64,000 bases of DNA from Alphaproteobacteria bacterium (GTDB lineage Bacteria; Pseudomonadota; Alphaproteobacteria; Rs-D84; SZUA-605). Shown piece by piece: positions 15,095-53,664 of this stretch (its first letter is position 1; each line of letters starts with the position of its first letter). The stretch lies in the NCBI GenBank assembly GCA_031549385.1, contig JAVBPW010000001.1, forward strand, positions 390,661-454,660. The letters are read 5' to 3'. Both the position numbers and the translations under genes were made by a program. Below the pieces are notes generated by a model that saw only the letters and a list, made by a program, of their open reading frames with translations, searched no databases and was not told the origin of the DNA.

Positions 15095-16027
15095 TTATTT
15101 TTTTGATAATGGATGGTATTTCATATAAACTTCTTTTAAATGATTATCTTGAAGTTTTGTGTAAACTTGGGTTGTTGATAAATTAGCATGACCTAATAAT
15201 TCTTGAATAGATCTTAAATCAGCTCCATTTTTTAATAAATGTGTTGCAAATGAATGTCGCAGTGAGTGTGGTGTTATGTCTTCTGGAAGACCAACATGCC
15301 TTCTGATTTTTTCAATTAACCTTTGAATTTGACGTGGGTTTAATTGTTGTCCATTTAAGCCTATAAATACTGGGTCGCCCATAGGGTTTCCATAGGGTTT
15401 TATTCTTATATAATTTTCTACTTCTTGGATTACTTGGTCTATTAATGGAACTAGTCTTTCTTTATCGCCTTTTCCTCGTATTCTTAATATACCAGATGTT
15501 TCTGCACCATACCAATCATTGAATGTTAATTCTAATGCTTCTGAGATACGAAGACCACAGCCATAAAGTAAATATAGAATTGCTTTGTCTCTTGCTGCTA
15601 TCCATGGAGTTTTATCGAATTCTTCTACACTTTTAAAGAAGGCATCTATATCAACTTCTGATACTGTTTTTGATAGTTTCTTTTGTACTTTTGGTGCTTT
15701 AAGAAGTTCTATTTCAGAGTTTTCTGTTTCATATTCATTATACAAAAATCTGTAAAATGTTTTTATAGCTGAAATATTACGGGCTATACTTTGGTTTGAT
15801 AAGTTATTTTCTTTACGGGAAAATAAGAATGAACGAAACTCTGTTATTGTTACTTTTGATAAGCTTTCTGGTGTTACATCTTCATTTGTTGCTTTTTTTA
15901 GGAATATTAGGAAAAATGTTAAATCCCTTACATAGCTTGATGCTGTGTGTTTGGAAAACCTTTTTTCGGCTAGTAAATATCTTTCAAAAGATTTTGTTAA
16001 TTCTTGTATCATGAGTGTATTATACAA
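15095..16027 (-). CDS. Tyrosine site-specific recombinase, XerC/XerD family
   Basis: C-terminal catalytic region 'HSLRHSFATHLLKNGADLRSIQELLGHANLSTTQVYT' carries the R...HxxR...Y signature. Confidence 0.85.
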   Translation of the reverse strand: MYNTLMIQELTKSFERYLLAEKRFSKHTASSYVRDLTFFLIFLKKATNEDVTPESLSKVTITEFRSFLFSRKENNLSNQSIARNISAIKTFYRFLYNEYETENSEIELLKAPKVQKKLSKTVSEVDIDAFFKSVEEFDKTPWIAARDKAILYLLYGCGLRISEALELTFNDWYGAETSGILRIRGKGDKERLVPLIDQVIQEVENYIRIKPYGNPMGDPVFIGLNGQQLNPRQIQRLIEKIRRHVGLPEDITPHSLRHSFATHLLKNGADLRSIQELLGHANLSTTQVYTKLQDNHLKEVYMKYHPLSKK

Positions 16028-22428: not shown

Positions 22429-24624
22429 ATGAATAAAAAGTTTTTTATAGGATTGGGCGTTTTAGTAGTTGTTTTAGGTTTTAGTGCTAATGCTTATGCT
22501 CAACGTGCTAATACATCTGCAGCTGTGAAAAAACAACAAACTGGTAGAGCAGGAGTTGCACGAGCAGGAATTACACGTATAACAACTGTTGCGACAAAAG
22601 TTCCAACAAGTGGTGGTACAACTACAGATACAACAACTGATGATACAAAATTAGATTCACTTGCTTGTTCAAAAGCTTTTTATAATAAACTTGTTGAAAG
22701 TGGAGTTTGTGGGGGAGCCAACTTATCTACATGTAATGCTGATTTCAAAGTTTCTTTGATGAATGGGGATTATACAGCTTTTATGGCAAGTAAAGGTTAT
22801 ATAGCTCAAACAGTATTTACAAATTGTGATTGTGGAACTGACAGTGCTGGAACTGCTTTGGATTGTAAGAAGGTTGCTGCTATGTATGTTGGTTCTGTTA
22901 TGACTGATGGAATTATTAAAGATTATTATTCTTGCCAAAGAAGTTTTAATTCTTGTGCTAATGCAGTTTGTGGAACTGATTATGCTAATTGTGCTGATCT
23001 GTTAACAGAAAAAACTTATCCAACTGATGGAGTTGAATCTGCTCAAGCTATTTCTAGAGAATTAGAAAAGTTATTAGGTGAATTAAACTCAGGTAGTGCT
23101 TATGCTTCTACTATTTCAGGAGTTGGTACAAGACTTCAAAAAAGATTAGGAGAATGTCGCGCTAATATCTTAGATAAGTGTGAAATCGCTTCTGCTGATG
23201 GTACTTCTGATAATGCTACAAGAAGACAAGAAATCTTTGATGAATATAGAGATGGATTAATCAGAAATGGTTCAAAAGCTTTGATTGCTCGTTATGGTAA
23301 TGATGCTAAGAAAAGTATTATGGATGCATATTCATGTGTTGATTCAGTTGATGCTTGTATGAAAAAACAATGTGGAAGTGACTATAACAAATGTTTAAAT
23401 GATGACTTTACAGTTAATACTTCTGCTGTAAATAACTTCAAATCACTTTGCCAACAAGATCTTATTTCTTGTGCTGAAGTAAGAGCATTGGCTCAGTTAG
23501 AGGGATACCAATACTTAGCTGATGTTAAGGTTGACGGTGTTGCTCAAGTATGGAATGATTTTATTACAAACAGAGTGCTTGCTTATGCTAATGCAAAAGC
23601 TGTGGATCGTAAGAAATTAGAAGAAAAATTAGAAAATCTATTATCATTTGCTCAAAAGAGCTGTCAAGATAATGGTGGTGTAGTTCAATTTATCCAAGAA
23701 AAATTGGCTATCTACGACGCAAAATATGGTACATCACGTACAAACGATCAGGTTGCTAATGATACTGGATTGTTTGGAACTACTACAGTTGATGGTGATT
23801 TAGAATATTCAACAACTGCAAATGATGGAGCTCGTAAAGGGGATAGATTTTATAACAAAATGGTTTGTGCGTTCCCGTTAACAGGAAACAAAGATGCTAA
23901 TTCAAATATGCCAAAAATCATATTAATGGGTGAAAGCAAGGTTTGTGATGCTACATTCTTTGATGTTGATAAAAAAGCTGGTGGAAGAATTGTAGGTTCT
24001 ATCGTTGGTGCTGGAGTTGGTACTGCTGCTGGATTGTTGACAAGTGGTGCATTGAAGAAAGACCCATCAAAAGATATTGCTGATATTAACATAGCTATTC
24101 TTAAAGTAGAAGAATGTATAGCAGCAAAAGATGATGTTAATAAATATGATAAACTTAGAGAAGAAGCAGCTAATTTAGTTAATAAGGCTGGTGTTATGGT
24201 AACTGTTGATAATGCTTGTGATTCTGGAACAAAAGCGAGTTTGACTAAAAAGTTAGATCAAGGTGGTGGAAAATTAATTGAAAATCAAAAAGCTCAAAAT
24301 GCTGTACTTGGTACTGCTGGTGGGTTAGCTCTTGGTGCTGCTGGATTTGGTGTTGGTTCTGCTATTGATAAAAAGAATGCTGAAAAGAAACAAGATGAAT
24401 TGAAGTGTGTTGTTGGTGGAAAACAATATGCAATTGGAGAAACAATTACTGTTGCAAGAAGCTCAGCTTTCAGAGAACTTGAAGATTTCTATCAACAAAA
24501 TCCTAACTTGTTGGCAGAAAGAGGTGAATACATCAATTCTAAGTACAGAGGTGAATCTGTAGTTGCTGGACCTCAAGGAGATCAGAAAGATAGCAATATT
24601 AAGAATGAAAGTTTATTCCAATAA
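22429..24624 (+). CDS. Large secreted Cys-rich protein (731 aa) carrying two glycine-zipper helices of the 5.4-8.1 kb family
   Basis: Signal peptide ...ANAYAQR. N-terminus 'AQRAN..TGRAGVARAGITR' resembles the 5420 protein. About 30 Cys in paired CxnC spacing. 'GGRIVGSIVGAGVGTAAGLLTSGALKK' and 'NAVLGTAGGLALGAAGFGVGSAIDKK'. Strong RBS. Confidence 0.75.
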   Translation: MNKKFFIGLGVLVVVLGFSANAYAQRANTSAAVKKQQTGRAGVARAGITRITTVATKVPTSGGTTTDTTTDDTKLDSLACSKAFYNKLVESGVCGGANLSTCNADFKVSLMNGDYTAFMASKGYIAQTVFTNCDCGTDSAGTALDCKKVAAMYVGSVMTDGIIKDYYSCQRSFNSCANAVCGTDYANCADLLTEKTYPTDGVESAQAISRELEKLLGELNSGSAYASTISGVGTRLQKRLGECRANILDKCEIASADGTSDNATRRQEIFDEYRDGLIRNGSKALIARYGNDAKKSIMDAYSCVDSVDACMKKQCGSDYNKCLNDDFTVNTSAVNNFKSLCQQDLISCAEVRALAQLEGYQYLADVKVDGVAQVWNDFITNRVLAYANAKAVDRKKLEEKLENLLSFAQKSCQDNGGVVQFIQEKLAIYDAKYGTSRTNDQVANDTGLFGTTTVDGDLEYSTTANDGARKGDRFYNKMVCAFPLTGNKDANSNMPKIILMGESKVCDATFFDVDKKAGGRIVGSIVGAGVGTAAGLLTSGALKKDPSKDIADINIAILKVEECIAAKDDVNKYDKLREEAANLVNKAGVMVTVDNACDSGTKASLTKKLDQGGGKLIENQKAQNAVLGTAGGLALGAAGFGVGSAIDKKNAEKKQDELKCVVGGKQYAIGETITVARSSAFRELEDFYQQNPNLLAERGEYINSKYRGESVVAGPQGDQKDSNIKNESLFQ

Positions 24625-25445: not shown

Positions 25446-26438
25446 TTATGGGTTGGTTAGCTGGAATTCTATACGTCTGTTGTATTTTCTGTGTGCTGGA
25501 GTGTCGTTTGGAGCCAATGGTTGATATTCCCCAAAGCCTGTTGGAACTAGGTATTTTGCAGGAACACCTTTTTGTGTTAGGTAAGTTACTACTGCTCTTG
25601 CTCTTGCATAAGAAAGGTCGAAATTGTCTTTAAATCTTGTATTTGTTTTGCTTAATGGAACGTTATCTGTGTGGCCGTCTACACGAACTATCCAATCTAT
25701 ATTTTCTGGAATCTTTTGAATAATATTTTTTAATATTGTCGCTACTTTATCAAGTTCTTTTTTACCATTTAATCCTATATTATCTGAACCTGGAGCAAAT
25801 AGTAATTCACCTTGTAATACAAATCTGTCACCTTTTTTTTCTATGGCTTCTTCTGAACCAATTGAGGAATTTAATTCTTGAAAGAATTGTGAACGAACTT
25901 CCATTAAGTCTGCTGTCTTATTTGCCAAAGCTCGGTTTAATTGTTTTCCTAGTTCAACAATTTCTACATCTCTTTTTAGCATTTCTACTCTATCGTTTTC
26001 TAATATAATACTTAGCTTTGATATTTCATTTGTTAATTCTTGAATCCTTCCTTTCATAGCTGTCTTTGTTAGGTTTTCTTGATTTAATAGACTGTCGTTT
26101 TCTATGATTTTGCCTTCTAGTGATGCTATTACTTGATTGTATTTATCAATTTGATCTTTGTAGGAAGTTAATTCACTTTCTTTATTATTCATATTTGATG
26201 ATAGTTGATTTATTCTGTTTTGTAGGAGAGCTATTTCTTGTTGTTTCTTTAAGTTTTCTTTGTGCAATACTTCAAAGCTTGCTTGTTGCTTTGTGGTTGT
26301 TGATAATTTGTAATTAAGTAAGAATTGAAACATTACAAATATGAATAGAAAGAATAATAATAGAGCTATTGTATTTGAAAATAAGTCTATAAATCCTGAA
26401 CCGTATGCTTCTTCAACTGTTTGGTTTTGTCTTCTCAT
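25446..26438 (-). CDS. MotB/OmpA-like protein: N-terminal TM helix, ~150-aa coiled coil, C-terminal OmpA-type peptidoglycan-binding domain
   Basis: TM 'IALLLFFLFIFVMFQFLL'. Heptad-rich residues about 45-200. C-terminus 'VRVDGHTDNVPL...LSYARARAVVTYL...NRRIEF' is an OmpA_C-like motif. Confidence 0.75.
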   Translation of the reverse strand: MRRQNQTVEEAYGSGFIDLFSNTIALLLFFLFIFVMFQFLLNYKLSTTTKQQASFEVLHKENLKKQQEIALLQNRINQLSSNMNNKESELTSYKDQIDKYNQVIASLEGKIIENDSLLNQENLTKTAMKGRIQELTNEISKLSIILENDRVEMLKRDVEIVELGKQLNRALANKTADLMEVRSQFFQELNSSIGSEEAIEKKGDRFVLQGELLFAPGSDNIGLNGKKELDKVATILKNIIQKIPENIDWIVRVDGHTDNVPLSKTNTRFKDNFDLSYARARAVVTYLTQKGVPAKYLVPTGFGEYQPLAPNDTPAHRKYNRRIEFQLTNP

Positions 26439-27409
26439 TATCCGTTCTTTTTATTCTTTATTGATTTACTTAATATTTTAATGTCATTTGAAAGTTGTGA
26501 TTTCATTATTTTTAAATCTGCTTCTACATTTGATGAACTTTCTAATCTTTTTGCTGTTACCATAAATTGTAAAGATAAGTCTTGTAAGTTTTTAATTGTT
26601 TCTGATAAAGATTTTTCTGAATTTATAATTGTATTTTCAAGTTTGTTTATTGTTTCTGCATTTTGTTCAAGCAAAGATAGAAGATATGGGGAAACATCAC
26701 CACTTGATGCTACGTTTGCATTTGAAATGATTGTTAGGGCTGAAAGATTTTCTTCTATGTAATTGTAAAAATCATTTTGAGCCAAACTTATTTGTTGATT
26801 TATGAAACTTAATATTAGGGAACATGAAAGACCTATGAATGAAGAAGAGAAAGCAATAGACATTCCATTTAATGGTTTTGATAAATCATTTTTTAATGCA
26901 TCAAATACAAGAGTGAAATCTGTTGATGTTACTGAGAAGTCTGTAATAACGCCTGATATAGAATGAATTGTTATTAAAAGGCCTAAGAATGTTCCTAAGA
27001 GGCCTAAAAAGATTAATAGGTTGGAGAAATAACGACCTGTTTCTTTGTTGTCTTGTAAACGTGAATACATTATGTCTAAGATTGATTGCAAAGAAGTTGA
27101 GTTGAGTAAAAACTTTTTTTGATTTTTTGTTATCTCATATAAAGGTAGTAAAATCTTAGGTTGTTGATTATTTGGCTTTTTATTTAAAAAATTTTTAAAC
27201 CATACTAATTCTGGTTCAAGTGTTAAAAAGTATGTGAATGATTTATATAATCCTACACTAAATACACAAATAATGATTAAATTTAGTTCTGGATTTGATA
27301 AAAATAATTTTATAAATTGCGGGAAAAATGCAAGAACTATTATTGCTATTGCTAATATAAATAACATTATATATTTGAAATATTTATCTAAAAAATTTTT
27401 TGAATTCAT
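26438..27409 (-). CDS. MotA/TolQ/ExbB-family proton-channel-like protein with a C-terminal coiled-coil tail
   Basis: Four predicted TM helices including 'FLGLLGTFLGLLITI' (MotA/ExbB GLLGT signature) and 'MSIAFSSSFIGLSCSLILSFIN'. About 120-aa coiled-coil tail. Its stop overlaps the start of the downstream MotB-like gene (TAATG). Confidence 0.75.
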   Translation of the reverse strand: MNSKNFLDKYFKYIMLFILAIAIIVLAFFPQFIKLFLSNPELNLIIICVFSVGLYKSFTYFLTLEPELVWFKNFLNKKPNNQQPKILLPLYEITKNQKKFLLNSTSLQSILDIMYSRLQDNKETGRYFSNLLIFLGLLGTFLGLLITIHSISGVITDFSVTSTDFTLVFDALKNDLSKPLNGMSIAFSSSFIGLSCSLILSFINQQISLAQNDFYNYIEENLSALTIISNANVASSGDVSPYLLSLLEQNAETINKLENTIINSEKSLSETIKNLQDLSLQFMVTAKRLESSSNVEADLKIMKSQLSNDIKILSKSIKNKKNG

Positions 27410-27557: not shown

Positions 27558-28553
27558 ATGAAGAAATTTTTAATACTATTTTCTGTATGCTTTATGGCAA
27601 TTAGCAGCTCTTATGCTGGATTGCTTGATTGGTTTTCAAGTGATGAAGATTATACTACTACTATTGCTGATTATACAGGGGAACCTGATGTTAGAGTTGT
27701 TAGTGCTGAAGAACGATATGAACTTGATAGTTATCAAGTGCCTTTTTATGTGAAAGAAGAACCTTATGCTGTGCCTGAAGTGAAAACTCCTCCTGTTCTT
27801 TGGGGAAAAGATGATCTTTATTACCCTTATCAATTAGAACCACATGTTTCTAAAAAATCATTTCAACAAGTAACTGCTCAGCGACCTTTTGCTCAAACAG
27901 CACAAAATGTTACTGTGGTTTGTAGAAAGGCTGGGTGTACTCGTCTTAATGATAAAGTTACACGTCAATTCTTATTCAGTAACTTATTAAATGTATTTAT
28001 TAATAATAAATTTACACAAGTTAGTATGTGTGAAGCTGATCCTAATTCACGAGCTTGTTTGTCTAATTCAATCCGTTTTGGTGGAAGAGTTGGTGGAACT
28101 GCTTCTTTAATTCAAATTTATTCTGCTTATGTAGCTGATTTGCGTTTTACTAAATCTATGAATAAATTGGATATTTATTTGATGTATAATGTTTATATTA
28201 ATGGTGTTAAATCACAATGTAGTGGCGCTTTGACTGCAGTTGAAGTTTTTTCTAATGACCAAGTTATTATGAGAGATGAAAGTTATAAATGCCAATTGAC
28301 TTCTGGTGTACCTACAACAGTGTTTTCTATGTTCAATGTTGATTATATCGACCTTGATTATGGTTTGATCGGTGGATATTATTCTATTGGTCTTTCTGGT
28401 GAATCTGCAGCTGGTGGAAATGGTTATGTTTTAATGAAATTTACTAAAAACACTAGGAATTCAGCTTTCAGAGAAAATCCAAAAGATGGTGAAGGGTTTG
28501 CTGGATACGAAGTTCCTGCTGGTGAATATGAAGTTAGACCTTTAGCAGAATAA
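27558..28553 (+). CDS. Secreted hypothetical protein (331 aa)
   Basis: Signal peptide 'MKKFLILFSVCFMAISSSYAG'. No recognisable domain. Confidence 0.6.
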   Translation: MKKFLILFSVCFMAISSSYAGLLDWFSSDEDYTTTIADYTGEPDVRVVSAEERYELDSYQVPFYVKEEPYAVPEVKTPPVLWGKDDLYYPYQLEPHVSKKSFQQVTAQRPFAQTAQNVTVVCRKAGCTRLNDKVTRQFLFSNLLNVFINNKFTQVSMCEADPNSRACLSNSIRFGGRVGGTASLIQIYSAYVADLRFTKSMNKLDIYLMYNVYINGVKSQCSGALTAVEVFSNDQVIMRDESYKCQLTSGVPTTVFSMFNVDYIDLDYGLIGGYYSIGLSGESAAGGNGYVLMKFTKNTRNSAFRENPKDGEGFAGYEVPAGEYEVRPLAE

Positions 28554-51909: not shown

Positions 51910-52623
51910 TTATTTTCTGTCCCCACCACCTGTTAAGCGTAAGATTGCTAAGAACAAGTTGATGAAATCTAAGTACAATGTTAATGCTCCAAATACTGCT
52001 ACATTTTCTGATTTTGAACTTCCACCCATTTGAGTGTGAATTACTTTTAGTTTTTGGATGTCATATGCAGTAAAGCCTACAAAGATTATTACTGTTAATA
52101 TATCAATTATAAAACTCATTTGAGCTGAACCTAAGAAGATGTTGATGATTGATGCTATGATTACTCCAATTAATCCCATGAACATGAATGAACCAACAGA
52201 TGTTAAGTCTTTCTTTGTTGTGTATCCATAGATAGACATTGCACCAAAAGTTGATGCTGTGATTAAAAATGCACGAGCAATGCTTACTACTGAATAGCCT
52301 AGTAATGAAATGCTTAATGATAATCCCATTAATACTGAGAAAGCAAAGAACATGCCTTTTGCTTTAGCTGGTTCCATGGTATAAAGTTTGTTTGCTATGA
52401 AAAACAAGAATATCAATGGAGAGAATATTACTAAGTAACCTAGTAATGAAAGTGATGCTCCATTTGCTGATACTTTTATAAATAATGTTATTAGGTTAAA
52501 ATTTATTGTTAAAAATGCTGTAAGAGCACTTATTAATAAACCTGCACCCATATAGTTAAATGTGTTTAGTATAAAGCTCTTTAAGTCGGTTTTTTGAGCA
52601 ACTACTGTTGTTTTGTTTTTCAT
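51910..52623 (-). CDS. Bax-inhibitor-1/YccA-family (TMBIM) membrane protein
   Basis: 237 aa with seven TM helices. The C-terminal pattern is typical of the BI-1 family. Confidence 0.7.
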   Translation of the reverse strand: MKNKTTVVAQKTDLKSFILNTFNYMGAGLLISALTAFLTINFNLITLFIKVSANGASLSLLGYLVIFSPLIFLFFIANKLYTMEPAKAKGMFFAFSVLMGLSLSISLLGYSVVSIARAFLITASTFGAMSIYGYTTKKDLTSVGSFMFMGLIGVIIASIINIFLGSAQMSFIIDILTVIIFVGFTAYDIQKLKVIHTQMGGSSKSENVAVFGALTLYLDFINLFLAILRLTGGGDRK

Positions 52624-52857
52624 TTTTCATCTCCGTTTTTTAAGGTTAGTATTAATATATCTTTCAAAAAGGGGTATTTCAAGCACAAAATTTTATTTTT
52701 TTCTTGTAATTTCAAATATTTTTGTTTATATATTATCTATCTTTTTGAAATAAAAAGAAATTCACATGTTGCAAATGGGCCTTTAAAAAAACCTAACGGT
52801 GCTCGAAAGAGTGTAGTGCAACAGAGGTTAACCGGTAAATATAAAGGAGTCATTAAA

Positions 52858-53664
52858 ATGAGTTTACCAAACGTTGATATTAAAGAATTAATTGAAGCTG
52901 GTGTTCACTTCGGACATCAATCTCGTCATTGGAATCCTAAGATGTCTAAGTACATCTATGGAACAAAAAATAAAGTGCATGTTATTGATCTTCGCCAAAC
53001 TGTGGTGATGATGCAAGATGCTCTTAAAAAATTAGAAGAAATTGCTGCAAATGGTGGAAAGTTCCTTTTTGTTGGAACAAAAAGACAAGCTGCTGACTTA
53101 GTTAGAGATGAATCTGAAAAAGTTGGTCAATACTATGTTAACCATAGATGGTTGGGTGGTATGTTGACTAATTGGAAAACTGTTAGTGCAAGTATTAGAA
53201 AAATGAAGCAAATCGAAAAACAAATCGAAAATGCTCAAGAACTTAAATTAACTAAAAAAGAAATCTTAAATTTAACTCGTGAAAGCGAAAAATTAAGAAT
53301 GGTATTAGGTGGTATTATGGATTTAGATGGAACTCCATCTGCATTAATTGTTATTGATGTACCACGTGAAAAATTGGCTATTGCTGAAGCAAATACTTTA
53401 GGTATTCCTGTTTTTGCTATTTGTGATACTAATGCAAATCCTGATGGAATTGATTATATAATTCCTGGTAACGATGACGCTTTTAGAGCTATTTCAGTTT
53501 ACCTTGATTTGATGACTAAAGCTATACTTTCTGGATTTGAAAAAAGAGTTGGAAATATGGAAGCTAAATCATCTGCTAAAGTAGAAGTTAAAAAGGCTGA
53601 AAAAGTTGAAGTTAAAAAAGAGGAAGTTGTTGCTACAGAAACTAAAGAAAATAAAGGAGAATAA
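52858..53664 (+). CDS. rpsB: 30S ribosomal protein S2
   Basis: 'LIEAGVHFGHQSRHWNPKMSKYIYG' is the canonical S2 N-terminus. ATG at 52858 with AAAGGAG RBS. The track ORF is extended upstream to 52594. Confidence 0.95.
   Translation: MSLPNVDIKELIEAGVHFGHQSRHWNPKMSKYIYGTKNKVHVIDLRQTVVMMQDALKKLEEIAANGGKFLFVGTKRQAADLVRDESEKVGQYYVNHRWLGGMLTNWKTVSASIRKMKQIEKQIENAQELKLTKKEILNLTRESEKLRMVLGGIMDLDGTPSALIVIDVPREKLAIAEANTLGIPVFAICDTNANPDGIDYIIPGNDDAFRAISVYLDLMTKAILSGFEKRVGNMEAKSSAKVEVKKAEKVEVKKEEVVATETKENKGE

What the first reader, a model, noticed from the sequence alone, without database searches (positions are those of the whole stretch)
25446..27409. Orphan MotA/ExbB-like plus MotB/OmpA-like two-gene module with extended coiled coils (stator-like or Zorya-core-like ion-channel pair)
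Two minus-strand genes are translationally coupled by a TAATG overlap at 26438. The first (323 aa) has the four-helix MotA/TolQ/ExbB topology, including the signature 'FLGLLGTFLGLLITI' and a fourth helix 'MSIAFSSSFIGLSCSLILSFIN', followed by an unusual coiled-coil tail of about 120 aa. The second (330 aa) has one N-terminal TM helix, then a heptad-rich coiled coil of about 150 aa where MotB/TolR carry a short plug/linker, then a C-terminal OmpA/MotB peptidoglycan-binding domain ('DGHTDN..LSYARA..NRRIEF'). No flagellar, Tol-Pal or TonB partner genes are nearby; the neighbours are yhhQ and a secreted hypothetical. A MotAB-like proton channel with elongated tails that anchors to peptidoglycan is the architecture of the ZorA/ZorB core of Zorya anti-phage systems. 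ZorC, ZorD and ZorE are absent here, so this is either a minimal or new stator-driven envelope system, or a divergent Tol/Mot paralog.
Basis: partly seen in the sequence, partly recalled or inferred. Interest (0 to 1): 0.72.

Follow-up and report, generated by a model that had tools for sequence, protein, structure and literature searches.

The report
Non-flagellar ZorAB-like envelope motor pair
These two overlapping genes are real and belong to a large, conserved but mechanistically unstudied family, mostly in Alphaproteobacteria, that looks like a proton-driven membrane motor tied to the cell wall by a long stalk; it is neither a flagellar stator nor an anti-phage Zorya system.

Summary
A (26438-27409, 323 aa) and B (25446-26438, 330 aa) lie on the minus strand and share a TAATG stop/start. 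A has four hydrophobic helices and a 118-aa helical tail. B has one TM helix with the conserved Asp, one 138-residue helix and an OmpA/MotB-type peptidoglycan-binding domain.

The pair is not an orphan. A has at least 7,900 homologues (894 clusters at E<=1e-30). B follows A directly in 77 of 80 genomes, mostly Alphaproteobacteria, usually beside efp and suhB. NCBI names the two genes "flagellar motor protein MotA" and "peptidoglycan-binding protein" (PRK09039).

By sequence, ZorA is the only named motor family that A matches, but far below ZorA cut-offs. By fold, A is closest to TolQ, ExbB and ZorA, not flagellar MotA. The geometry is the reverse of Zorya: short A tail, long B stalk. No ZorC/D/E, flagellar, Tol or Ton genes lie in the window.

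The "motA/motB" genes studied in non-flagellate Komagataeibacter hansenii belong to this family. Overexpression there gave elongated, chained cells.

Best reading: a housekeeping, proton-driven 5:2-type motor anchored to peptidoglycan, with an envelope or cell-division role. The motor core is inferred from conserved residues and fold; the output is unknown.

The parts
26438..27409 (-). Gene A: 323-aa inner-membrane subunit of the MotA/ExbB/TolQ/ZorA superfamily (predicted pentameric part of the motor)
   Evidence: ORF. Pfam MotA_ExbB 21.6 bits. PADLOC ZorA1 2.4e-10. At least 7,957 homologues. AF2 pLDDT 77, and Foldseek best hits are TolQ, ZorA and ExbB.
27314..27370 (-). A hydrophobic segment 1 (residues 14-32): extra N-terminal TM helix or signal anchor, which TolQ, ExbB and ZorA (three TM helices) lack
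   Evidence: Kyte-Doolittle 2.71. ZorA has three TM helices.
27224..27280 (-). A hydrophobic segment 2 (residues 44-62)
   Evidence: helix 40-75 in the AF2 model
26963..27019 (-). A hydrophobic segment 3 (residues 131-149) with the invariant FLGLLGTF motif. T140 is the likely channel-lining Thr, equivalent to ZorA T147.
   Evidence: Invariant columns F134-F141. Aligned to lGviGTFmGL of Shewanella ZorA. ZorA T147 contacts ZorB D26.
26801..26857 (-). A hydrophobic segment 4 (residues 185-203) with the invariant AFSSS motif (S188, S190), equivalent to ZorA S184
26441..26794 (-). A cytoplasmic helical tail (residues 206-323). It contains the conserved Y242-x3-LLEQ motif and is about 50 aa shorter than in most relatives.
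   Evidence: AF2 helices 165-225, 241-291 and 295-321. Heptads at 243-294. Alignment gap against relatives. Tail length 118 against a family median of 173.
26436..26440 (-). TAATG stop/start overlap joining A and B (suggests translational coupling)
   Evidence: sequence read directly
25446..26438 (-). Gene B: 330-aa single-pass protein, PRK09039-type 'peptidoglycan-binding protein' (predicted dimeric axle and anchor)
   Evidence: ORF. NCBIfam NF006543 full length, 8.9e-66, 223 bits, cut-off 305. Pfam OmpA 65.7 bits. Lies directly downstream of A in 77 of 80 loci.
26385..26387 (-). Codon of B Asp18, invariant at the cytoplasmic end of the TM helix. Equivalent to MotB D32 and ZorB D26, the proton-carrying residue of 5:2 motors.
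   Evidence: Invariant column D18 in 26 sequences. Role of ZorB Asp26. The MotB D32 equivalence is from general knowledge.
26316..26372 (-). B transmembrane helix (residues 23-41)
   Evidence: Kyte-Doolittle 2.75; AF2 helix 16-46
25860..26273 (-). B periplasmic stalk: one continuous helix, residues 56-193 (about 20 nm if straight), heptad-rich in 54-157. It ends in the conserved LGxxLNxALAxK...RSxFF segment.
   Evidence: AF2. Heptad test. Conserved columns. The stalk is never short in 166 homologues.
25455..25844 (-). B OmpA/MotB-type peptidoglycan-binding domain (residues 199-328) with DGHTD, N-x2-LS-x2-RA and NRRIE motifs
   Evidence: Pfam PF00691. Invariant columns. Foldseek best hits are MotS, PomB and MotB periplasmic domains at 27-35% identity.

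Best explanation
The two genes encode a non-flagellar, non-defence, ion-driven motor of the 5:2 class.

Proposed mechanism:
- Two B chains form the central axle. Each carries the invariant Asp18 at the start of its TM helix.
- Five A chains surround the axle. A Thr140 and Ser188/190 line the proton path.
- B is held to the cell wall by its MotB-type peptidoglycan-binding domain. That domain sits at the end of a helical stalk of at least about 135 residues, presumably a parallel dimeric coiled coil.
- Because B is anchored, proton flow would turn the A ring, and with it the short cytoplasmic helical tail.

The pair is a housekeeping module inherited vertically in Alphaproteobacteria and present in some Gamma- and Betaproteobacteria. 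It sits in a core-gene neighbourhood. Its most likely role is in envelope mechanics or cell division and separation.

Shown: gene structure, family membership, synteny, conserved residues, predicted folds.
Inferred: 5:2 stoichiometry, proton coupling, rotation.
Weakly inferred: the physiological output.
For: Family and synteny:
- A has at least 7,957 homologues at 35-45% identity over its full length, and 894 clusters at 50% identity with E<=1e-30.
- B follows A on the same strand in 77 of 80 loci. The three exceptions are loci where the stored contig ends close to gene A.
- The recurrent context is TMP-TENI, EF-P, inositol monophosphatase, an OmpA-like secreted protein, A, B, then an ABC exporter.
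- The whole window holds only core genes.

Motor features:
- B D18 is invariant. So are A FLGLLGTF and AFSSS, which align to the ZorA residues that contact ZorB Asp26.
- The A model matches TolQ, ExbB and ZorA chains with probability about 1.0.
- The B C-terminal domain matches MotS, PomB and MotB peptidoglycan-binding domains, and the peptidoglycan-binding motifs are invariant.

Not flagellar:
- No NCBIfam MotA or PomA model matches any of 26 family members.
- MotA and PomA structures rank 43rd or lower, with TM-scores (normalised to the query) of about 0.2.
- The cytoplasmic loop of A is only about 68 aa.
- The family occurs in Komagataeibacter hansenii, which the authors describe as non-flagellate. 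The primer-encoded termini of its 'motA/motB' (MTRPTTY..., MARRSR......EFRLTDR*) match Acetobacteraceae members of this family.

Physiology in K. hansenii: overexpression gave elongated, chained cells and polar GFP foci, and disruption mutants are viable.
Against: - No multimer model or structure could be made, so stoichiometry and rotation rest on homology.
- The Pfam MotA_ExbB score of A is below the gathering threshold. Profile searches against PDB sequences give no significant motor hit; the best is ZorA at E 0.79.
- Foldseek E-values for A are only 3e-3 to 1e-2, with query-normalised TM-scores of 0.2-0.4.
- The stalk varies greatly in length: the Asp-to-GDRF distance is 159-399 residues. 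Some stalks would therefore exceed the width of a periplasm if straight, so the simple 'reach the wall' picture is incomplete.
- The Komagataeibacter phenotypes are indirect and mostly come from overexpression.
- The window copy lacks the near-invariant WP before the Asp motif, lacks about 50 aa of the tail, and lacks the upstream OmpA-like partner. It may be a reduced version.
Confidence: 0.6

Rival explanations
1. A minimal or novel Zorya-like anti-phage sensor. The ZorAB-like core would detect envelope perturbation and signal through the A tail to effectors encoded elsewhere in the genome.
For: ZorA profiles are the only named family matched: all 26 members in PADLOC (best 6e-15), and NCBIfam ZorA_4 in 19 of 26. 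The best PADLOC hit of B is ZorB3 at 3e-25. The only motor recovered from PDB sequences is Shewanella ZorA. The A tail profile weakly resembles the Tsr signalling domain (E 0.016), which echoes the similarity between the ZorA tail and chemoreceptors reported in PMC11946911.
Against: - Scores are far below the curated ZorA cut-offs: 20.2 against 100 bits, and 15.7 against 500.
- No ZorC/D/E-type gene lies in the 64-kb window, and no conserved effector-like neighbour was found in 80 loci.
- The context is conserved and made of core genes, not a variable defence island.
- The tail is 118 aa (family median 173) against about 500 aa in EcZorA.
- B has a 138-residue stalk, whereas the Zorya model depends on ZorB having no linker.
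- The A model has no beta-strands, whereas the published ZorA structure has a beta-hairpin in its cytoplasmic domain.
Confidence: 0.07
2. A genuine or spare flagellar stator, as the PGAP name 'flagellar motor protein MotA' implies, docking on a rotor encoded elsewhere.
For: Source names say 'flagellar motor protein MotA' and 'chemotaxis protein MotB'. A has four hydrophobic segments, like MotA. The peptidoglycan-binding domain of B is closest to those of MotS, PomB and MotB. Many carriers, such as Azospirillum and Rhizobium, are motile (general knowledge).
Against: - No NCBIfam MotA or PomA model matches any of 26 members.
- Flagellar stator structures are poor matches.
- The cytoplasmic loop is too small for a torque-generating interface.
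- In the model, B has a 138-residue helix where MotB has a plug helix and flexible linker.
- The pair is never in a flagellar cluster in the loci examined.
- It is present in Komagataeibacter, described as non-flagellate.
Confidence: 0.05
3. A Tol-Pal-like or Ton-like force transducer. The A/B motor would energise an outer-membrane-proximal process, with the long helix of B playing the TolA role and its OmpA domain the Pal role. Alternatively it would work through the upstream OmpA-like, Pro/Ala-rich protein found in other Alphaproteobacteria. This overlaps the best explanation but specifies a pulling output rather than a rotating one.
For: The top Foldseek hits of A are TolQ chains. B has a long periplasmic helix. 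A secreted Pro/Ala-rich OmpA-domain protein lies directly upstream of A in at least 26 loci. Overexpression gives cell chaining, which resembles tol phenotypes.
Against: B has an OmpA-type periplasmic domain, not a TolR/ExbD-type one. No TolA/TonB-like gene is adjacent, and the upstream partner is absent from this window. No NCBIfam TolQ or ExbB model matches A.
Confidence: 0.2

Closest known systems
ZorA/ZorB core of Zorya anti-phage systems (E. coli and Shewanella ZorAB; PDB 8qyd, 8vvn)
   Same: - It is the nearest named family by sequence for A.
- Both have a TM core with GTF and (S/T)-rich helices facing an invariant Asp in B.
- Both A subunits have a helical cytoplasmic C-terminal tail.
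- Both B subunits have an OmpA-like peptidoglycan-binding domain.
   Different: - The tail is 118 aa (family median 173) against about 500 aa.
- The A model has no beta-hairpin in its cytoplasmic domain.
- A has four hydrophobic segments against three.
- B has a stalk of at least about 135 residues, where ZorB has none.
- There are no ZorC/D/E genes.
- The context is core genes and inheritance looks vertical.
- Scores are far below ZorA cut-offs.
TolQ-TolR and ExbB-ExbD motors
   Same: Best structural matches of the A model, at probability about 1.0. They are non-flagellar 5:2 motors acting on the envelope.
   Different: The periplasmic domain of B is OmpA/MotB-type, not TolR/ExbD-type. There is no TolA or TonB partner. 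No TolQ or ExbB sequence model matches A. A has an extra N-terminal hydrophobic segment and a C-terminal tail.
Flagellar stator MotA-MotB / PomA-PomB / MotP-MotS
   Same: The peptidoglycan-binding domain of B is closest in fold to those of MotS, PomB and MotB. A has four hydrophobic segments. The two genes are adjacent and overlap.
   Different: A lacks the large cytoplasmic torque-generating domain. No MotA model matches it. B has a long continuous helix in place of a plug and flexible linker. The pair is not in flagellar clusters. It is present in a non-flagellate genus.
Komagataeibacter hansenii 'MotA' (348 aa) and 'MotB' (321 aa) of Jacek et al. 2019 (PMC6570709)
   Same: Same family. The primer-encoded termini match Acetobacteraceae members of the family. 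Sizes and gene order agree, and the host is described as non-flagellate.
   Different: A distant orthologue; A shares roughly 32-36% identity with Acetobacteraceae members. The Komagataeibacter work reports phenotypes only (cell length, colony spreading, cellulose texture, polar foci), with no mechanism.

Membership tests
Zorya (ZorAB core with effectors) | ZorA family profile matched at the curated threshold | tested here: not met
   NF033915 20.2 bits against a cut-off of 100. NF033917 15.7 against 500. PADLOC hits cover only the TM core, residues 124-284.
Zorya (ZorAB core with effectors) | Very long ZorA C-terminal tail (EcZorA 223-729, about 70 nm) | tested here: not met
   The tail is 118 aa here, with a family median of 173. 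ZorA values from PMC11946911.
Zorya (ZorAB core with effectors) | ZorB peptidoglycan-binding domain fused to the TM helix without a linker | tested here: not met
   A 138-residue helix lies between the TM helix and the OmpA domain. The Asp-to-GDRF distance is at least 159 in all 166 homologues.
Zorya (ZorAB core with effectors) | Adjacent effector genes (ZorC and ZorD, ZorE, or ZorF and ZorG) | tested here: not met
   None in the 64-kb window. No conserved effector-like neighbour in 80 loci. The rest of the genome was not available.
Zorya (ZorAB core with effectors) | Invariant Asp in the B TM helix, facing Thr/Ser on the A TM helices | tested here: met
   B D18, A T140 and A S188/S190 are invariant. 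They align with ZorA/ZorB positions.
Zorya (ZorAB core with effectors) | Protection against phage | not testable with these tools
   Needs phage plating assays on a deletion or heterologous expression strain.
Flagellar stator MotAB/PomAB | MotA/PomA sequence model matched | tested here: not met
   No NCBIfam MotA or PomA hit at E<=0.01 for any of 26 members. Pfam MotA_ExbB is below the gathering score.
Flagellar stator MotAB/PomAB | Expanded cytoplasmic domain with a torque-generating interface of at least four helices between TM2 and TM3 | tested here: not met
   The loop 63-130 is about 68 aa and holds only short helices. Criterion from PMC12505986. MotA/PomA structures score about 0.2 TM.
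Flagellar stator MotAB/PomAB | B subunit with a plug helix and flexible linker, then an OmpA-like peptidoglycan-binding domain | tested here: inconclusive
   The peptidoglycan-binding domain is met. No plug or flexible linker is seen in the model, only a low-confidence stretch at 47-55 followed by one long helix. This rests on a monomer model alone.
Flagellar stator MotAB/PomAB | Flagellar gene context, or a flagellate host | tested here: not met
   No flagellar gene in the window or around 80 related loci. The family is present in Komagataeibacter, described as non-flagellate. The flagellar status of this organism is unknown.
TolQR / ExbBD | A-subunit fold of TolQ/ExbB | tested here: met
   The top Foldseek hits are TolQ and ExbB chains, probability about 1.0, target-normalised TM-score 0.4-0.58.
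TolQR / ExbBD | B subunit with a TolR/ExbD-type periplasmic domain, plus a TolA or TonB partner | tested here: not met
   B carries an OmpA domain. There is no TolA/TonB gene in the window. No TolQ/ExbB NCBIfam hit for A.
Alphaproteobacterial 'MotA-like + PRK09039 peptidoglycan-binding protein' pair (uncharacterised family; includes K. hansenii motAB) | B aligns over its full length with PRK09039 models | tested here: inconclusive
   NF006543 aligns residues 3-329 to model positions 8-349 of 350, E 8.9e-66, 223 bits. This is below the equivalog cut-off of 305, so B is a clear homologue but a divergent one.
Alphaproteobacterial 'MotA-like + PRK09039 peptidoglycan-binding protein' pair (uncharacterised family; includes K. 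hansenii motAB) | A aligns over its full length with the family and keeps its invariant residues | tested here: met
   35-45% identity over 80-98% of the query. All 43 invariant columns are shared by definition with the window sequence.
Alphaproteobacterial 'MotA-like + PRK09039 peptidoglycan-binding protein' pair (uncharacterised family; includes K. hansenii motAB) | A immediately upstream of B on the same strand | tested here: met
   One-base overlap here. 77 of 80 loci elsewhere.
5:2 ion-driven rotary motors (superfamily) | A5B2 stoichiometry and ion-driven rotation | not testable with these tools
   Only monomer predictions were possible. Needs a multimer prediction, cryo-EM or biochemistry.

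The most novel reading that the evidence does not exclude
The family is a separate functional class of 5:2 motor. It would be a housekeeping sister of the Zorya sensor core with the opposite geometry: a short cytoplasmic tail, and a B subunit held at the cell wall permanently by a coiled-coil stalk of at least 20 nm. It would run constitutively in Alphaproteobacteria, including non-flagellate and genome-reduced lineages, and drive an unknown envelope or cell-division process. It might also show what Zorya evolved from.
Probability: 0.35. Interest if true: 0.7.

Novelty: new variant of a known kind. Interest (0 to 1): 0.5.

Why it matters
Five functions are established for 5:2 ion-driven motors: flagellar rotation, Ton import, Tol-Pal envelope maintenance, gliding, and Zorya defence.

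This family is large, conserved and, in at least one genus (Komagataeibacter), present without flagella. Public annotation calls it a flagellar stator, which this analysis does not support. Its nearest sequence relative is a phage-defence sensor, yet it behaves like a core gene.

Working out what the A ring turns, or what the long B stalk pulls on, could add a new output to this motor class. It could also bear on the origin of Zorya.

For this particular window the result is more modest: one divergent, somewhat reduced member in an uncultured low-GC alphaproteobacterium.

Tried and rejected
- The first genome scan, with the single A protein, found no confirmed relative. The alignment-based scan worked.
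- The full-length A profile searched against PDB sequences returned only coiled-coil noise. A core-only profile recovered just Shewanella ZorA, at E 0.79.
- The afdb50 fold library was unavailable, so UniProt-named orthologues in model organisms could not be listed.
- The promoter and terminator scan was no better than shuffled sequence: 16 sites against 13.1 expected, and no terminator.
IF-2 homologues place the organism only as an uncultured alphaproteobacterium, at most about 60% identical to named taxa.
- A literature search for PRK09039 returned two papers whose titles do not concern this family; they were not opened. Searches for MotA-like or non-flagellar stators in Alphaproteobacteria, and for ZorAB homologues, found no paper on this family other than the Komagataeibacter work.
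- The 331-aa upstream secreted ORF was tested as a possible equivalent of the OmpA-like partner seen in other genomes. No similarity was found.
- Gamma- and betaproteobacterial loci were checked for a third conserved gene. Only unrelated neighbours turned up: a TonB-dependent receptor, HrpB and VanZ.
- One look-up, for the lysS product, was not on record.
- My simple ORF caller produced antisense shadow ORFs in high-GC loci (clusters c3 and c5). I ignored these.
Full report
**Observation**

The two minus-strand ORFs are present exactly as described: A at 26438-27409 (323 aa) and B at 25446-26438 (330 aa). The junction reads AAC GGA TAATG AGA AGA, so the stop of A and the start of B share one base. 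The window is about 30% G+C, where stop codons are frequent, so two abutting ORFs of over 320 codons are not a chance event. Both also have thousands of homologues.

Hydropathy gives four hydrophobic segments in A (14-32, 44-62, 131-149, 185-203) and one in B (23-41). Lys+Arg is richest in the A 63-130 loop and the 150-184 loop is net acidic, which fits both the 63-130 loop and the tail lying in the cytoplasm. Heptad periodicity is above the 99th percentile of shuffles in B 54-157 and A 243-294.

AlphaFold2 with family alignments gives these models:
- A (pLDDT 77) is all-helical, with long helices 104-157 and 165-225 and tail helices 241-291 and 295-321.
- B (pLDDT 74) has a TM helix 16-46, a low-confidence stretch, one continuous helix 56-193, and an alpha/beta domain 199-328.

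Pfam finds OmpA in B at 65.7 bits. MotA_ExbB in A scores 21.6 bits, just under the gathering score of 22.9.

**Surroundings**

Pfam annotation of the whole window shows only core genes: ileS, kdsA, lysS, argS, pth, sspB, a XerC/D-type recombinase, dcd, mlaA, lnt, ybeY, miaB, yhhQ, an OmpR/EnvZ-like pair, a glycosyltransferase, nusA, infB, an ABC exporter, xseA, lptF/G, lpxA, lpxB, pgsA, dnaX, infC, rpsB, tsf, tdk, secD, secF, fabF and mltG.

There is no flagellar, Tol-Pal, TonB/Exb or ZorC/D/E-like gene. The two flanking ORFs with signal-like N-termini (731 aa and 331 aa) have no Pfam match.

IF-2 is at most about 60% identical to any named taxon, and the named relatives are Alphaproteobacteria. 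The host is therefore an uncultured low-GC alphaproteobacterium. The same sequence sits on a 455-kb NCBI contig and a 43.5-kb Logan contig.

**The pair is not an orphan**

- A has at least 7,957 homologues, typically 35-45% identical over nearly its whole length and about 380 aa long. Sources name many of them 'flagellar motor protein MotA'.
- A profile search of 1.84 billion cluster representatives finds 894 at E<=1e-30 and 2,309 at E<=1e-10.
These are mostly Rhodospirillales, Acetobacteraceae, Kordiimonas, Devosia, Hyphomicrobiaceae and Azospirillum. A few are Gammaproteobacteria (Dokdonella, Chiayiivirga) or MAGs labelled Betaproteobacteria.
- In 77 of 80 loci a B homologue lies directly downstream on the same strand. 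The three exceptions are loci where the stored contig ends close to gene A.
- B matches the NCBIfam PRK09039 'peptidoglycan-binding protein' models end to end (E 8.9e-66, 223 bits, below the equivalog cut-off of 305).
- In many Alphaproteobacteria the neighbourhood is TMP-TENI, EF-P, inositol monophosphatase, a secreted Pro/Ala-rich protein with a C-terminal OmpA domain, A, B, and an ABC exporter on the other strand. The OmpA-like upstream gene is absent from this window.
- Gamma- and betaproteobacterial loci have no conserved third gene.

This is the signature of a vertically inherited housekeeping module, not a defence island.

**Relationship to known motors**

By sequence, the only named motor family that A matches is ZorA.
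- All 26 sampled members hit PADLOC ZorA1 and ZorA3 profiles (best 6e-15).
- In NCBIfam only ZorA_4 (19 of 26), ZorA_2 (12) and ZorA_3 (3) are hit.
- No TolQ, ExbB, MotA or PomA model appears at E<=0.01.
- A core-only profile recovers a single motor from PDB sequences: Shewanella ZorA at E 0.79. The alignment runs through the GTF and AF(S/T)S helices.
- The scores are nevertheless far below the curated ZorA cut-offs: 20 against 100 bits.

By fold, the A model is closest to TolQ, ZorA and ExbB chains (probability about 1.0, E 3e-3 to 1e-2). Flagellar MotA and PomA rank 43rd or lower, with query-normalised TM-scores of about 0.2. The C-terminal domain of B is closest to the peptidoglycan-binding domains of MotS, PomB and MotB, at 27-35% identity.

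The residues that define the mechanism of this motor class are invariant: B Asp18, A Thr140 in FLGLLGTF, and A Ser188/Ser190 in AFSSS. In EcZorAB the equivalent Thr147 and Ser184 contact ZorB Asp26. The OmpA peptidoglycan-binding motifs DGHTD, N-x2-LS-x2-RA and NRRIE are also invariant.

**How it differs from Zorya**

- EcZorA has three TM helices, a beta-hairpin in its cytoplasmic domain and a tail of about 500 residues (70 nm).
- The ZorB peptidoglycan-binding domain is fused to its TM helix without a linker. It therefore cannot normally reach the wall, which lies about 9 nm away. The proposed sensing mechanism depends on this.
- Here the geometry is reversed. The A tail is 118 aa (family median 173, n=275).
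- B always has a long stalk: the Asp-to-GDRF distance is 159-399 residues (median 211, n=166) and 185 in the window.
- A 138-residue straight helix is about 20 nm long, more than enough to place the peptidoglycan-binding domain at the wall permanently.
- The longest stalks would exceed a periplasm if straight. The stalk is therefore not a simple ruler. I leave this unexplained.

**Experimental literature**

Jacek et al. 2019 (PMC6570709) studied 'motA' (348 aa) and 'motB' (321 aa) in Komagataeibacter hansenii. They state that the genus has no flagellum, and that these were the only motility-related homologues in the genome.

Their primers (Table S1) encode MTRPTTY... for MotA, and MARRSR... 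and ...EFRLTDR-stop for MotB. These match the termini of Acetobacteraceae members of the present family:
- A: MTRPTIYLVRM and MTRPTVYLLRM.
- B: MARRR...WPGYVDALS at the start and NRRIEFRLTDR at the end.

Their genes therefore belong to this family.

Overexpression gave longer cells in chains with visible septa, more colony spreading, and looser cellulose. GFP fusions were polar. Disruption mutants are viable and make denser cellulose. No mechanism was proposed beyond 'a proton pump with an unknown partner'. I found no other paper on the family. A recent survey of MotAB relatives lists many non-flagellar 'generic ion transporters' of unknown function, but in the passages I retrieved it does not mention this family.

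**Interpretation**

I consider it settled that the pair is a divergent member of this conserved family. Compared with typical members it is somewhat reduced:
- about 50 aa are missing from the A tail;
- the near-invariant WP before the Asp motif is replaced;
- there is no upstream OmpA-like partner.

I consider it likely (about 0.7) that it assembles as a proton-conducting A5B2-type complex anchored to peptidoglycan through B. This rests on the conserved Asp, Thr and Ser residues, the fold matches and the conserved peptidoglycan-binding motifs.

The physiological output is only weakly indicated. Three observations point to envelope mechanics or cell division and separation rather than motility or defence: the core-gene context, the frequent OmpA-like partner, and the Komagataeibacter phenotypes.

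The rival readings are weighed in their own section. A Zorya-like sensor and a flagellar stator each fail several tested defining features. A Tol-like pulling device remains compatible and differs mainly in the kind of output.

**Verdict**

Relative to characterised systems this is a new variant of the 5:2 motor kind. As a protein family it is already catalogued, probably misnamed as a flagellar stator, and has been touched experimentally once.

Interest is moderate. The family deserves structural and genetic work, but this window adds only one more member.

Noticed in passing
L003-L081 (for example L036:1938-2900, L053:4780-5913); absent from the window: In at least 26 of 80 related loci, a secreted Pro/Ala-rich protein with a C-terminal OmpA domain (Pfam OmpA 44-50 bits) lies directly upstream of A on the same strand. 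It sits in an efp - inositol monophosphatase - [OmpA-like] - A - B arrangement and is a possible third component. The window organism lacks it.
   Followed up: partly
window 26441-26794 (A tail); alignment A1 profile positions 248-317: The family profile of the A tail, including the conserved LLEQTAESL motif, weakly matches the Tsr chemoreceptor signalling domain (1qu7, E 0.016). This recalls the published similarity between the ZorA tail tip and chemoreceptor signalling units. It may be only coiled-coil composition.
   Followed up: no
B homologues (166 sequences), corresponding to window 25860-26273: The periplasmic stalk of B is never short but varies greatly in length: the Asp-to-GDRF distance is 159-399 residues. 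The longest versions would exceed the width of a periplasm if straight. No explanation so far.
   Followed up: partly
window 22429-24624 (+) and 27558-28553 (+): Two ORFs with signal-like N-termini flank the pair. One is 731 aa and Cys-rich. The other is 331 aa and is transcribed divergently from A. Neither has a Pfam match, and neither resembles the OmpA-like partner seen elsewhere.
   Followed up: partly
window 27314-27370 (A residues 14-32): A has an extra N-terminal hydrophobic segment compared with the three-TM TolQ, ExbB and ZorA. In relatives it is followed by a conserved AFxANP motif. It could be a TM helix or a long signal anchor, or even a cleaved signal peptide; this was not resolved.
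   Followed up: no
whole window 1-64000: The host is an uncultured low-GC (about 30%) alphaproteobacterium. Its IF-2 is at most about 60% identical to any named taxon. The window holds only core genes, including yhhQ (Vut_1) and tdk, and many envelope genes (mlaA, lnt, lptF/G, lpxA, lpxB, an ABC exporter, mltG).
   Followed up: partly
window 52594-53664 (+): The rpsB ORF, as listed from a TTG start, has about 98 residues ahead of the Ribosomal_S2 domain and overlaps the upstream gene on the other strand. The true start is probably further downstream.
   Followed up: no
window 15095-16027 (-): A tyrosine recombinase (Phage_integrase plus the SAM-like N-terminal domain), most simply XerC/D. No other mobile-element genes were seen nearby.
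   Followed up: no
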